From: Podarcis gaigeae
Taxonomy: Eukaryota
Strand: one strand, 5' to 3'
Length of the DNA stretch: 64,000 bases
Assembly (NCBI GenBank): GCA_964106915.2
Contig: OZ066927.1
Made by a program: the position numbers. Within the stretch, counting starts at the first letter, position 1; each line of letters starts with the position of its first letter. This document shows positions 51,313 to 54,300 of the stretch, piece by piece.

Positions 51313-51350
<38 letters not shown>

Positions 51351-54300
51351 TTTCGTAGATTTTCACGGGTACAGGAATGCAGGTTTTGGTGTCCTCGGGT
51401 GTCTTCCCGTGTAAAAGTTGGGGTGTCTAGGCGACGTTTCGACGAGGTCTCACTCGTCATCTTCAGGCTGGTGCTTTCGGCTTCTTGTTACTGGAACAGA
51501 GCTGTTCCAGTAACAAGAAGCCGAAAGCACCAGCCTGAAGATGACGAGTGAGACCTCGTCGAAACGTCGCCTAGACACCCCAACTTTTACACGGGAAGAC
51601 ACCCGAGGACACCAAAACCTGCATATATATATATATATATATATCTCGGAATAATTTTTGCTAAATTCATGACAGTAGGAAAAAAAGACTAATTGGACTA
51701 GTATGCATATGAAATTACAAAGTACACCTGGGGATACAAGTTTGTGAAACTATTATCAAGTAAAAACCCAGAAAAAAATATCATGATAGCTCAGAGAGAG
51801 TATCATCAATGTCCCTGGCCTTTCTTGAAAACTCAACAGATTGAGTATCAAGCTCCTCCTATTAACATTAAAGCTCCTCCCCAATTCCCAGAAGATAAAA
51901 ATAGGGGGGAATCATATAAAGTTTTCATATTTGCCATGACATCAGGCTCCAGGGGACAGAGAGATGAAGCAGGACTGAGAAACCAGGTGGTTTCTCTTCT
52001 CCCTAGGCTGTTTTTATTCTACCTGGTCACTATATGAACTGCTATTTAACAGATGCCTAAGTTCACTTTTCCCATTTTCCTTTTATGTATCCTTCTTAAT
52101 TTATTGCATGGAAGCTACTCTGTAGACTGTTAACTGCCTAGAATGTTGTTTCAGCAACATCAGTAAAGGTGAACGTAACAAGAAAGGTCAAGGGATGAGT
52201 ATCAGGTGTGAGAGCAAATTAGCTTAAAATTATCTGTCTCCACGTCAAAGCAGGGGAATCAGGTTCAAACCATAGGCCAGTAGTATATCACATGCTTTCC
52301 ATGCAGAGAGAATTGGGTTCAATCGCTGACATCTCCAGACAGGGATGGGAAGAACCATTGTACAAAGCAATACTGGATGAGATGGACCAATTGTCTGACT
52401 TGGTATAAGGCAGCTTCCCATGCTCCTAATACATATTAATTCAATGTGGCTTTTTTAACAATGTTGATGATAATGATGATAAAAGATTCTTGATGGAGTG
52501 CACATCTAGTAAGAGATAGGGTTGTATTCAGAACCATGGACAGCAACTGGGTTTCCTGAATAGCCACTTTAATAGTGAAGGTGAAGAGATAAGGCCCTGG
52601 TTTGCTCTTTCCTGTCCTTGCACACATGCACACACAATTTGCTTGCAGGCAAATCCTGTTTCCAACCATTCTATTTTTCTTACTCCCACACTAGTTTCTA
52701 GAAAGTCAAGTGGTACCAACCAAGGGACTGTATTTTGTATGTGAATCTCTATTTAATGACTCTCTAATTGTATGATCTGGAAGGGTGGTGCTGTGGGTTA
52801 AATCACAGAGCCTAGGGCTTGCCAATCAGAAGGTTGGCGGTTCGAATCCCCGCGATGGGGTTAGCTCCTGTTGCTCGGTCCCTGCTCCTGCCAACCTAGC
52901 AGTTCGAAAGCACGTCAAAGTGCAAGTAGAGAAATAGGTACCGCTCCGGCAGGAAGGTAAACGGCGTTTCCGTGCCCTGCTCTGGTTCACCAGAAGCAGC
53001 TTAGTCATGCTGGCCACATGACCCGGAAAATGTATGCCGGCTCCCTCGGTCAATAAAGCGAGATGAGCGTCGCAAACCCAGAGTCAGCCACGACTGGACC
53101 TAATGGTCAGGGGTCCCTTTACCTTTATCTATTTGTATGATCTACTTGCGGAAAACTGCATTCTGCACAAGCTTCCCAATCTATTTCTAAACTTCCTGTT
53201 GAGATACCAACACAGAAGAATTCAAGGCACTCAGAAGAGAAAATAAAGCAGGGGTAGGGGGTAGAGATGACTCTTTATTACATAAAAAAGCAATATATAC
53301 TAATTAAATATCATGAGCAGTAGTCCATTTCATGCTTCTCGATTTTCATGCCAATTTCCATCTCCCAGTAAACAGTTAGCATTTTGTATCTCTTTTTATT
53401 ATATACATATCATTAAATGAGAATCTGTCCAAATTTTCTGCTAACCTCCTCCCACACCAATCATTATTGCAGAGAGAAATGTCCAAAAACAATAGTGCAT
53501 GCAGATTTTTTTTTTTTAAATGTGTGAATTAAGTGAGTGTCTGATCTACACCATGTAACTACTGGGCACTCTCAGTAAGAAACTGGTTGTAACCTTGCAA
53601 AACCAATGTATTTAAACCAGCATGTGTTTGTGGTGTTTCAAATACATATCATCTCTTCAATTTTCATATTATGACATTTTTTCCAGACCTTGGTCTAGCT
53701 CTGAGACTGGATGCTACCCGGTTTGGCATGGCGGATAAGGAGCAGGATGGCAATAGACGGATGGGGAGGGAGTAAGGCTACAGATTATGCAAACACAAAT
53801 CAAAGAGTGAGAGGCAAGTGCAAAGTTCCTGGATGGTGGGATTTCTGCAAAGCCAGGCACAAATTCAGGTCCCAGAGTCTGTGAAAGAGGCATGAATAGC
53901 CCAGAAGCAGCTAAGGCAAGAAGGGGAGTCATGATCCAAAGCAGCAGTAGGAAAAAGGAAGTTACCGGTAAGTGGATTGGGATAGTCCTCACACTTAAGA
54001 CTTATTTGCTCAGATGCAAGAACTGGCTTTCCTACAATAGGGCTTAGTGTATTCTAACTAACCTGGAGAGTTAGCTGCCAATATTCAAGCTGGCTCTCTT
54101 CAGCCTGGAACAACATCCTAGAGGACACCCTTTTTCCTTAAGACATGGATGGGGAAAACTGGGAGAGCCTGTTGGCAGCCTAAGGTCCATCTACTGCAGC
54201 ATCCTATATTTACAGTGGCCAACCAGATACCTGTGGGAACCCCACAAGCAGGACATGAGGGCAACAACACTCTCCTCAATTGAAATTCACAGCAACTGGT

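What the first reader, a model, noticed from the sequence alone, without database searches (positions are those of the whole stretch)
51315..51644. Perfect 123-bp-arm palindrome with a 2-nt spacer inside a (TA)n microsatellite: very young inverted Penelope-like insertion
Seen: 51377-51499 and 51502-51624 are exact reverse complements with spacer AG and all CpGs intact. The left copy extends 28 nt further (51349-51376), and both 3' ends run into (TA)n, which would extend the fold-back. Established: Penelope-like elements often leave 5'-truncated inverted copies and some target simple repeats; near-spacerless long palindromes extrude cruciforms and are unstable. Inference: a single recent event, with both strands of the self-complementary TA target primed or a fold-back of the cDNA. 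It is probably polymorphic, and any read-through transcript would form a >120-bp dsRNA (Dicer/ADAR substrate) that could silence the family in trans.
Basis: partly seen in the sequence, partly recalled or inferred. Interest (0 to 1): 0.72.

Follow-up and report, generated by a model that had tools for sequence, protein, structure and literature searches.

The report
Head-to-head Penelope-like retrotransposon stub in (TA)n
The perfect palindrome is real and is two very short inverted copies of the start of a Penelope-like retrotransposon inserted into a TA microsatellite, which is a known signature of these elements rather than a new kind of feature.

Summary
Arms 51377-51499 and 51502-51624 are 100% complementary over 123 nt with the 2-nt spacer AG. 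A 28-nt extension (51349-51376) sits on the left copy only. The two flanking tracts are the only (TA)>=6 tracts in the 64-kb window.

The Penelope-like element (PLE) reading is supported.
- Each arm carries a minimal hammerhead-ribozyme motif of the metazoan PLE type: 2 hits in the window, none in 200 shuffles.
- The motif straddles an ATG that opens a 37-codon frame.
- That peptide matches, N-terminus to N-terminus, two proteins (68% and 59% identity). Their relatives are full-length reverse transcriptase (RT) + GIY-YIG endonuclease proteins, including the Anolis Poseidon-type protein.
- The 28-nt extension fits the published PLE "tail". The long copy ends at ORF nt ~112, next to the RT start mapped for Anolis PAc (111-118 nt).

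Head-to-head truncated copies, a one-sided tail and AT-rich targets are all published PLE traits, so this is a new member of a known kind.

Youth fits the data: 0 of 246 arm positions differ and the arm CpG ratio is 0.96 against 0.21 for the window. Polymorphism, the small-RNA claims and read-level validation could not be tested here.

The parts
51315..51348 (.). (AT)17, left half of the TA microsatellite target
   Evidence: Together with 51623-51644 these are the only (TA)>=6 tracts in the window (52 nt, 0.08%).
51349..51376 (-). 28-nt 'tail'. It is the extra 3' sequence of the left (minus-sense) copy and covers ORF nt 85-112.
   Evidence: It is present at one end only, as described for PLE insertion units (PMC8557442 passages; PMC3846280 passages; PMC11167929 main text).
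51377..51499 (-). Left arm: a 5'-truncated PLE copy, sense on the minus strand. It holds 39 nt upstream of the ATG plus ORF nt 1-84.
51500..51501 (.). 2-nt spacer AG at the head-to-head junction
   Evidence: Its origin (non-templated addition, or 2 extra templated nt in one arm) cannot be told without other copies.
51502..51624 (+). Right arm: a 5'-truncated PLE copy, sense on the plus strand, ending at ORF nt 84 with no tail
51623..51644 (.). (AT)11, right half of the TA target. Its first AT overlaps the end of the arm.
51535..51568 (+). Minimal hammerhead motif: CUGAAGA box, an unpaired U, a 6-bp helix II starting G10.1-C11.1 with a 6-nt loop, GAAA, a palindromic C-G, then U-C. The predicted cleavage site follows 51568.
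   Evidence: My own descriptor: 2 hits in the window, 0 of 200 dinucleotide shuffles with any hit. Helix II appears in both the MFE and centroid folds. The feature list comes from PMC4209133.
51433..51466 (-). Mirror copy of the minimal hammerhead motif in the left arm
51541..51624 (+). Start of the PLE ORF in the right copy (28 codons). The ATG is formed by A9, the unpaired U and G10.1 of the hammerhead motif.
51350..51460 (-). Start of the PLE ORF in the left copy (37 codons, protein P0001)
   Evidence: 25/37 identical to P0002 and 22/37 to P0003, a Crotalus adamanteus hypothetical protein.

Best explanation
WHAT IT IS (about 0.85-0.9). The locus is the product of one retrotransposition event of a Penelope/Poseidon-type Penelope-like element (PLE) into a (TA)n microsatellite. 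It consists of two severely 5'-truncated copies joined head to head. Each copy holds only the last 39 nt before the ORF, including the first half of a minimal hammerhead motif, plus the first 84 nt (right copy) or 112 nt (left copy) of the ORF. It has no RT or endonuclease. It is a dead-on-arrival stub and most likely has no function of its own.

HOW IT FORMED (inferred, about 0.45).
1. The PLE endonuclease cut both strands of the TA tract.
2. Each 3'-OH primed reverse transcription inside the 5' part of the ORF. One priming was at about nt 112 and gave the arm with the 28-nt tail. The other was at about nt 84 and gave the arm without it.
3. Both cDNAs ran to the same 5' end at -39. This happens automatically if both were made on one RNA molecule.
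4. One RT added or copied 2 nt (AG) and jumped onto the 3' end of the other cDNA.
5. Each cDNA then served as template for the other strand, which gives a perfect palindrome.

WHAT IS SHOWN AND WHAT IS NOT. Shown here: the anatomy, the hammerhead motif and the protein homology. Taken from the literature: cleavage and extension of both strands, internal RT start sites, and the tail (Anolis PAc in vitro). Inferred: the order of events and the shared RNA template.

CONSEQUENCES (inferred, untested). The locus can extrude a cruciform. A read-through transcript would fold into a hairpin of about 124 bp.
For: Anatomy.

Hammerhead motif:
- My descriptor gives 2 hits in the window and 0 hits in any of 200 shuffles.
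- The ATG is built from A9-U-G10.1, with the cleavage site 25 nt after the ATG. PAc has the same layout: its ORF begins at stem II and its cut site is 26 bp after the start codon.

Protein link:
- P0001 against P0002: 25/37 identical from residue 1 (database-wide E 1.9e-4).
- P0001 against P0003: 22/37 identical.
- P0003 is collinear with the first 365 aa of the 841-aa P0031 (38%, E 3e-73).
- P0002 has 255 relatives at E<=1e-3. Of the 18 I scanned, 11 carry RVT_1 above cut-off.
- All 7 aligned full-length relatives have YVDD and a GIY..C..C..YIG core with the further R, H, H, H, E and N residues invariant.
- Of 124 proteins of 650 aa or more, 68 have that core and 0 of those 68 have a CX2-5CxxC linker. 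This is the Penelope/Poseidon type (clade criterion from PMC8557442).
- P0166 (Anolis carolinensis, 836 aa) aligns with P0002 with an offset of +1 residue. The long copy's end at ORF nt ~112 therefore corresponds to about nt 115 of PAc, inside the mapped RT start window of 111-118.

Literature support:
- Tail of 30-40 bp at one end only: PMC8557442. [quoted passage not shown]
- Both strands cleaved and extended, and AT-rich targets: PMC11167929.
- Dual min-hammerheads 100-700 bp apart on opposite strands: PMC4209133.

Target: the only (TA)>=6 tracts in 64 kb are the two flanking tracts.
Against: - No Rfam hammerhead model matched. There were 0 matches at gathering score over the window, only hairpin look-alikes of miRNA families in the palindrome, and nothing relevant on a single arm.
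- Helix I of the motif is only about 2 bp by eye, so catalytic competence is doubtful.
- The protein link rests on 37 residues, 10 of which are encoded by the hammerhead itself. It reaches RT + EN proteins only transitively through P0002 and P0003. No full-length protein shares the first 37 residues: 0 of 266 others in a blastp search.
- Pfam's GIY-YIG model hit only 1 of 7 full-length relatives, and below cut-off.
- No RT or EN coding sequence lies in the window, and no other copy of the family could be examined.
- For the mechanism, two independently primed cDNAs ending within 2 nt of each other needs the extra assumption of a shared RNA 5' end.
- The text I read does not say whether the second PAc start site lies upstream or downstream of 111-118. 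Fig. 1G and the supplements were not visible.
Confidence: 0.6

Rival explanations
1. Single-primer fold-back (self-priming). One cDNA is primed at about nt 112 from the left TA end. It is extended 151 nt, folds back on itself and copies itself. That copy stops 28 nt short and is joined to the right TA end by AT microhomology.
For: - Equal arms follow automatically from this model.
- Arkhipova et al. [quoted passage not shown]
- 'GCAT' occurs at both candidate joints, so a microhomology join or a later 28-nt deletion is possible.
Against: - The tail-less arm ends 28 nt inside the other. That spacing is close to the published tail length (30-40 bp and 31 bp) and to the spacing between the two RT start sites. 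Under this model that would be a coincidence or would need a block at that site.
- A U-turn with only 2 unpaired nt at the priming step is sterically awkward (inference from general knowledge).
- In typical PLE units the inverted copy ends at a canonical 3' end, which looks like priming rather than run-off of a fold-back.
Confidence: 0.25
2. Assembly or sequencing artefact, such as a fold-back chimeric read or a mis-join inside a more complex PLE array.
For: PLE tandem and inverted structures are reported to cause assembly problems (PMC8557442 passage; PMC3846280 passage). The arms are suspiciously perfect.
Against: - The structure is local (276 nt) and lies between two different unique flanks. 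The flanks are not inverted copies of each other: 153 of 500 shuffles score as well.
- It is asymmetric in exactly the biological way, with a one-sided 28-nt tail.
- A fold-back read would mirror the flank as well.
- No N runs lie nearby.
Confidence: 0.05
3. DNA-level inverted duplication after an ordinary single truncated insertion, by replication template switching or hairpin-mediated repair. Alternatively, two independent insertions into the same TA tract.
For: Microsatellites and short palindromes are prone to replication errors (general knowledge). TA tracts are preferred targets, so repeated hits are conceivable.
Against: - Two independent insertions truncated at the same nucleotide (+/-2) and abutting exactly are very unlikely.
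- A DNA-level duplication does not explain why the second arm ends at a tail boundary.
- Head-to-head pairs are a standard direct product of PLE integration.
Confidence: 0.05
4. The arms come from a short non-autonomous hammerhead element (a non-LTR retrozyme or solo-pLTR derivative) mobilised in trans, not from a truncated autonomous PLE. Position -39 would then be the natural 5' end of that element.
For: - A preprint abstract states that vertebrate non-LTR retrozymes derive from PLE pLTRs (10.64898/2026.07.22.740005, abstract only).
- A fixed 5' end would explain the equal arms.
- pLTR sequences alone can be integrated in trans (PMC3846280 passage).
Against: - The arms keep an open 37-codon frame that is homologous, beyond the hammerhead-encoded residues, to PLE protein N-termini.
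- There is no tandem direct array, which is how the preprint abstract describes non-LTR retrozymes; the copies are inverted.
- This rival changes the source RNA, not the nature of the event.
Confidence: 0.1

Closest known systems
PAc (Poseidon_Ac), the Penelope/Poseidon-clade PLE of Anolis carolinensis (Frangieh et al. 2024, PMC11167929)
   Same: - The hammerhead straddles the start codon, with the ORF starting at stem II and the cut site 25 nt (here) against 26 nt after the ATG.
- Copies end inside the first ~110-120 nt of the ORF.
- There is a tail between two RT start sites.
- Both target strands are cut and extended, and targets are AT-rich.
- The P0166 protein aligns with the bridging protein P0002 at 39% over 146 aa.
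   Different: - It is a different family. By eye against the RNA printed in the paper, the nucleotide sequence is unrelated outside the hammerhead core boxes.
- The first ~32 residues do not align.
- The reading frame across GAAACGUC differs by one nt.
- The locus here is a 276-nt stub, not a tandem array.
Pen2a_Av-type insertion units of Adineta vaga (Arkhipova et al. 2013, PMC3846280)
   Same: - An inverted pLTR sits head to head with a direct one.
[quoted passage not shown]
- The pLTR includes the first codons of the ORF.
- There are palindromes at the inverted junction.
   Different: Those units contain a full ORF between pLTRs, their arms are unequal, and TSDs of 8-10 bp are visible. Here both arms are equal, there is no internal ORF, and any TSD is hidden in the TA repeat.
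Dual minimal hammerheads on opposite strands in metazoan genomes (Cervera & De la Pena 2014, PMC4209133)
   Same: Two min-hammerhead motifs lie about 100 bp apart on opposite strands and are attributed to truncated PLEs. The core features are the same.
   Different: The paper does not describe (in the parts I read) perfect palindromes or TA flanks. Helix I here is shorter (~2 bp) than the 4-5 bp consensus and resembles the 2-bp D. virilis variant.
LINE-1 twin priming (recalled, no call)
   Same: Both ends of a staggered break prime reverse transcription, which gives an inverted 5' segment.
   Different: L1 twin priming yields an inversion of adjacent, different segments of one RNA, not two copies of the same segment. 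There is no tail and no hammerhead.

Membership tests
Penelope-like elements (EN+; Penelope/Poseidon clade) | Sequence homology of the copy to an element encoding a PLE-type RT and a GIY-YIG endonuclease with the internal CCHH motif | tested here: met
   The link is indirect.
- P0001 (37 aa) is 68% identical to P0002 and 59% to P0003, from residue 1.
- P0003 is collinear with the N-terminus of P0031.
- 11 of 18 scanned relatives carry RVT_1 above cut-off.
- 7 of 7 aligned full-length relatives have YVDD and the GIY..C..C..YIG core plus the invariant R, H, H, H, E, N residues.
- 0 of 266 other proteins share the first 37 residues.
Penelope-like elements (EN+; Penelope/Poseidon clade) | RT and EN coding sequence present at the locus (an autonomous copy) | tested here: not met
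   tblastn of 152 proteins against the window hit only the two arms. Pfam found nothing in 20 window ORFs. The locus is a truncated stub, not an autonomous element.
Penelope-like elements (EN+; Penelope/Poseidon clade) | Hammerhead ribozyme motif at the pLTR/ORF junction | tested here: met
   The min-hammerhead descriptor gave 2 hits against 0 in 200 shuffles. The layout around the ATG is as in PAc. Caveats: helix I is only ~2 bp by eye, and no Rfam model matched.
Penelope-like elements (EN+; Penelope/Poseidon clade) | Optional 30-40 bp 'tail' at only one end of the insertion unit | tested here: met
   A 28-nt extension sits on the left copy only. This is slightly below the published 30-40 bp and 31 bp.
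Penelope-like elements (EN+; Penelope/Poseidon clade) | Inverted 5'-truncated copy joined head to head | tested here: met
   Described in PMC8557442 and PMC3846280.
Penelope-like elements (EN+; Penelope/Poseidon clade) | AT-rich or (TA)n target | tested here: met
   The only (TA)>=6 tracts in 64 kb flank the insert. Note that strict (TA)n targeting is linked in PMC8557442 to clades with the CX2-5CxxC linker, which the relatives here lack: 0 of 68. PAc prefers AT-rich DNA.
Penelope-like elements (EN+; Penelope/Poseidon clade) | Target-site duplication; many dispersed copies in the genome | not testable with these tools
   Any TSD is hidden in the TA repeat, and there is no direct repeat beyond it. 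No eukaryotic genome collection was available, and there is no further copy in the window.
Hammerhead ribozyme (Rfam families; catalytic RNA) | Match to a curated hammerhead covariance model; three helices around the core; self-cleavage | tested here: not met
   There were 0 matches at gathering score and no hammerhead among the E<=1 or E<=10 matches. The core boxes and helix II are present, helix III is absent (min-type), and helix I is ~2 bp. Cleavage cannot be tested here.
Non-LTR retrozymes | Tandem direct repeats of short hammerhead-bearing non-coding monomers | tested here: not met
   The two copies are inverted, not tandem, and carry a homologous ORF start.

The most novel reading that the evidence does not exclude
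This minimal palindrome may be a natural snapshot of a symmetric, two-primer integration by a dimeric PLE ribonucleoprotein. In that reading both strands of the TA target primed on one and the same RNA molecule, one at each of the two internal RT start sites. That would explain the one-sided tail. Both cDNAs ran off the same RNA 5' end and then copied each other, which would explain a perfect palindrome with a 2-nt junction. If many such pairs in this genome show the same two fixed outer ends with variable but equal arms, they would give in vivo evidence for how PLEs build their inverted repeats. Craig et al. 2021 and Frangieh et al. 2024 state that this step is still unresolved. A perfect, nearly spacerless palindrome inside a TA tract would also be a candidate fragile or polymorphic site and a hairpin-RNA source.
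Probability: 0.3. Interest if true: 0.45.

Novelty: new member of a known kind. Interest (0 to 1): 0.27.

Why it matters
On its own it matters little. It is a dead fragment of a known class of retrotransposon, with the hallmarks already described for that class.

Three things give it modest value.
- It shows that a Poseidon-type PLE family was active recently in this apparently squamate genome.
- Its extreme simplicity lays the junctions bare: two equal arms, a 2-nt junction and a tail on one side. That makes it a clean test case for choosing between two-strand priming and self-priming models of PLE integration.
- Perfect, nearly spacerless palindromes of this length are expected to be unstable. 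The site is therefore a reasonable candidate for insertion/deletion polymorphism and for assembly trouble.

Tried and rejected
- Rfam over the whole window at gathering score gave 0 matches.
- Rfam by E-value on 51250-51700 gave 20 matches. All were hairpin look-alikes (MIR6288, mir-3158, mir-498, sok and others) caused by the palindrome and all were below gathering score, so I rejected them as artefacts of any long hairpin.
- Rfam on one arm alone gave one chance match, Giardia U4 at E 5.6, and no hammerhead model.
- Pfam on 20 window ORFs of 94-227 aa gave 0 families. Pfam on P0001, P0002 and P0003 gave 0 families.
- Pfam GIY-YIG on 7 full-length relatives hit 1 of 7, below cut-off. NCBIfam gave only distant RT models and one weak group I intron endonuclease hit. 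I relied on the alignment instead.
- tblastn of 152 proteins against the window found no RT or EN remnant.
- The weak inverted similarity of the flanks next to the TA tracts (I2 and I3) is not significant: 153 of 500 shuffles score as well. There is no TSD beyond the TA tract.
- The single-arm RNA fold is no more stable than shuffles (z -0.04).
- ARAGORN found 0 tRNAs in the window. Rfam by E-value on one SINE-like copy gave 0 matches.
- The protein atlas on P0003 returned only unnamed eukaryotic clusters carrying DUF8422. This adds little.
- Literature searches found no paper describing perfect, equal-armed PLE palindromes in TA repeats in reptiles. This covers only the held library.
- Not used: genome contigs (prokaryotes only, so irrelevant), structure prediction and complex prediction.
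Copy tally, empty alleles, read support, small RNAs and A-to-I editing all stayed unchecked.
- Supplements of PMC11167929 (Figs S1-S2, File S1) and PMC4209133 (alignments) are closed. They could fix the position of the second RT start site and give reptile hammerhead consensus sequences.
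Full report
1. OBSERVATION

- The repeat finder reports arms 51377-51499 and 51502-51624, 123 nt, 100% complementary, separated by 2 nt (AG). A script confirmed exact reverse-complementarity.
- To the left lie (AT)17 at 51315-51348 and then 28 nt (51349-51376) that have no partner on the right.
- The right arm runs directly into (AT)11 at 51623-51644.
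- As single-stranded DNA, 51315-51644 folds at -181.9 kcal/mol, against -33.3 +/- 3.7 for shuffles; 0 of 100 shuffles fold as well.
- As RNA, 51349-51624 folds at -261 kcal/mol; 0 of 200 shuffles fold as well.
- In the fold, the TA tracts pair with themselves and the one-sided 28 nt interrupts the helix. The TA repeats therefore do not simply lengthen the main stem.
- The window has 41.7% G+C, a CpG o/e of 0.21 and no N. Each arm has 8 CpGs and a CpG o/e of 0.96.
- blastn finds no third copy in the 64 kb.

2. WHAT THE ARM IS

2a. Hammerhead motif. Read in the sense of the right arm, the sequence has these parts in order:
- a CUGAAGA box;
- one unpaired U;
- a 6-bp helix closed by a 6-nt loop, whose first pair is G-C;
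- GAAA;
- the palindromic dinucleotide CG;
- U-C.

This matches the 'minimal' hammerhead that Cervera and De la Pena (2014, PMC4209133; I read parts 1-2 of 4) found in the flanking repeats of metazoan PLEs. [quoted passage not shown]

I wrote a descriptor with these traits. It hits the window twice, once per arm (51535-51568 on +, 51433-51466 on -), out of 26 CUGANGA boxes. It hits none of 200 dinucleotide-preserving shuffles. Helix II appears in both the minimum-energy and the centroid fold of a single arm.

Results against this reading:
- Helix I is only about 2 bp by eye.
- No Rfam hammerhead model matches.
- The Rfam hits inside the palindrome are miRNA-type hairpin look-alikes below gathering score.
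- Whether the motif cleaves is open.

2b. Start codon and ORF. A9, the unpaired U and G10.1 form an ATG (51541 on +, 51460 on -). It opens a frame that stays open to the end of each copy: 28 codons on the right and 37 on the left (P0001).

Frangieh et al. (2024, PMC11167929; I read the whole main text, plus methods passages) describe the same layout for PAc, the Poseidon element of Anolis carolinensis. [quoted passage not shown] Here it is 25 nt after the ATG.

2c. Protein link to PLE proteins.
- The 37-residue peptide was padded to 41 residues by reading on into the window's own TA repeat, because the tool needs 40. It finds one protein, P0002 (189 aa, E 1.9e-4 database-wide).
- P0002 aligns from residue 1 with 25/37 identities.
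- P0002 finds P0003, a 377-aa hypothetical protein of Crotalus adamanteus. P0003 also aligns with the window peptide from residue 1, with 22/37 identities.
- P0003 is collinear with the first 365 residues of the 841-aa P0031 (38%, E 3e-73).
- A full scan with P0002 gives 255 proteins at E<=1e-3. Of the 18 I scanned with Pfam, 11 have RVT_1 above cut-off, one has it below cut-off, and six have none.
- I aligned seven full-length relatives (788-853 aa). All seven share YVDD and a C-terminal GIY..C..C..YIG core with the further R, H, H, H, E and N residues invariant. This is the GIY-YIG endonuclease with the internal CCHH motif that Craig et al. (2021, PMC8557442; passages only) call characteristic of canonical EN+ PLEs.
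- Pfam's own GIY-YIG model saw only 1 of the 7, below cut-off.
- A search with P0003 gives 398 longer relatives. Among them are named proteins of Anolis carolinensis (P0166, 836 aa) and Podarcis muralis.
- The first residues of P0166 are, by eye, the translation of the PAc RNA printed in the paper's methods.
- Of 124 fetched proteins of 650 aa or more, 68 have the GIY..C..C..YIG core. None of the 68 has a CX2-5CxxC linker within 90 residues upstream. By the criterion in PMC8557442 this points to the Penelope/Poseidon clade.

Weak points of the protein link:
- It is transitive.
- Ten of the 37 residues are encoded by the hammerhead itself.
- No full-length protein shares the first 37 residues: 0 of 266 others.

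2d. What the locus lacks. There is no RT or endonuclease coding sequence in the window. Only the two arms are hit by 152 proteins in tblastn. The locus is a stub and any autonomous partner is elsewhere.

3. THE 28 nt AND THE ENDS

The published record of the PLE 'tail':
- Craig et al. describe a 30-40 bp 'tail', often present at only one end of a PLE insertion unit.
- Arkhipova et al. [quoted passage not shown] They also note that the pLTR includes the first codons of the ORF.
- Frangieh et al. show that PAc starts reverse transcription inside its RNA, most often 111-118 nt into the ORF, at two adjacent sites. The tail is the sequence between those sites. The protein cuts and extends both DNA strands.

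What is seen here:
- The right copy ends 84 nt into the ORF and the left copy ends 112 nt into it (+/-2 because of the TA ambiguity).
- P0002 aligns with P0166 at an offset of one residue. The long copy's end therefore corresponds to about nt 115 of PAc, inside the mapped window.
- The text I could read does not say on which side of 111-118 the second PAc site lies. The figure and the supplements were not available.
- The 28 nt is slightly shorter than the published 30-40 bp.

4. TARGET

The two flanking tracts are the only (TA)>=6 tracts in the 64 kb. They cover 52 nt, or 0.08% of the window, which holds sixteen CA/TG and GA/TC tracts of six or more units.

AT-rich or (TA)n targets are reported for PLEs. 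Craig et al. tie strict (TA)n targeting to clades with the linker zinc finger, which the relatives found here lack. One insertion cannot settle whether this family targets (TA)n or merely AT-rich DNA.

No target-site duplication is visible beyond the repeat. The flanks are not inverted copies of each other: 153 of 500 shuffles score as well.

5. HOW IT MOST LIKELY AROSE

The plus strand reads, in order: TA tract; antisense copy from ORF nt 112 back to -39; AG; sense copy from -39 to nt 84; TA tract. It could therefore have been made in one pass, primed from the left TA end, with one template switch at the centre.

Preferred model, two-primer (about 0.45). Both strands were cut and each primed at one of the two start sites. 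This explains why each outer end is a canonical 3' end and why the tail is one-sided. Both cDNAs ran off the same RNA 5' end, which is simplest if they were made on one RNA molecule. After 2 added nucleotides, one jumped onto the 3' end of the other.

Fold-back (self-priming) alternative, as proposed by Arkhipova et al. (about 0.25). It explains the equal arms for free. It needs a stop exactly 28 nt before the end and a very tight turn.

Less likely alternatives:
- Two independent insertions, or a later DNA-level duplication (about 0.05 together).
- An assembly artefact (about 0.05). The structure is local, lies between different unique flanks and is asymmetric in the biological way. Reads could not be checked.
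- The source RNA may have been a short non-autonomous derivative rather than a truncated autonomous transcript (about 0.1). This would change little.

All of these steps are inference. Only the anatomy and the homologies are shown.

6. AGE AND CONSEQUENCES

Zero differences in 246 arm positions, 16 of them CpG dinucleotides, in a genome with a CpG o/e of 0.21, argue for a recent event.

With assumed neutral rates of about 1e-9 per site per year and about tenfold faster CpG decay (recalled values, no call), the 95% upper bound is of the order of a few million years. Arm-to-arm gene conversion could also keep the arms identical.

Instability, polymorphism, hairpin RNA, Dicer/ADAR processing and trans-silencing are plausible but untested here. 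Arkhipova et al. report antisense-biased small RNAs from Penelope copies in a rotifer.

7. SOURCE ORGANISM

I do not take the window for human, for these reasons:
- It carries a PLE-derived insertion, and Cervera and De la Pena found no min-hammerhead family in mammals.
- The preprint abstract of Li et al. reports that non-LTR retrozymes are absent from birds and mammals and that their phylogenetic distribution coincides with that of PLEs.
- The nearest named relatives are squamate proteins.
- The window holds at least seven copies of a ~345-bp SINE-like repeat that I recall, without a test, as squamate-like.

8. VERDICT

The feature is a new instance of a well-described kind of structure, so interest is modest. 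Its value is as an unusually clean specimen for the unresolved question of how PLEs form inverted repeats.

Unchecked for lack of data: read support, genome-wide copy tally, empty alleles, transcription and small RNAs. Also unchecked are the closed supplements of the cited papers.

Noticed in passing
window 2190-2559, 15946-16294, 30125-30470, 30479-30857, 39240-39569, 52783-53130, 61799-62125: A ~345-bp interspersed repeat family with at least seven copies in both orientations. Four copies are 88-91% alike and two are adjacent in tandem (30125-30857). One copy lies 1.1 kb downstream of the palindrome. I recall it as resembling a squamate tRNA-derived SINE, but ARAGORN found no tRNA and Rfam by E-value found nothing in one copy.
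   Followed up: partly
window 18328-19200: A CpG- and G+C-rich block with a 100-bp tandem unit (2.1 copies, 88% matches). It aligns to itself in inverted orientation at 79-87%. It has ORFs of 94-227 aa on both strands, and Pfam found no match in the two of them I scanned (227 and 151 aa). Nature unknown.
   Followed up: no
window 43267-43416: A ~150-bp stretch that aligns to its own reverse complement at 78%, next to a 21-22-bp A-rich tandem repeat at 43116-43165. It may be an old degenerate palindrome or a MITE-like element.
   Followed up: no
window 13981-14057 and 32167-32224: Compound dinucleotide microsatellites: (TC)13(CA)11(GA)15 and (TG)15(GA)14. The window has sixteen CA/TG or GA/TC tracts of six or more units, but TA tracts occur only at the PLE insertion.
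   Followed up: partly
window 4018-4505: A G+C-rich stretch with overlapping open frames of 148 and 156 aa on opposite strands, Pro/Gly/Ala-rich, with no Pfam match. It may be a CpG island or a first exon. I did not examine it.
   Followed up: no
window 51293-51314 and 51647-51668: The A/T-rich flanks abutting the two TA tracts are listed as 81-83% complementary when the TA repeats are included (I2/I3). Without the repeats the similarity is not above chance: 153 of 500 shuffles score as well.
   Followed up: yes
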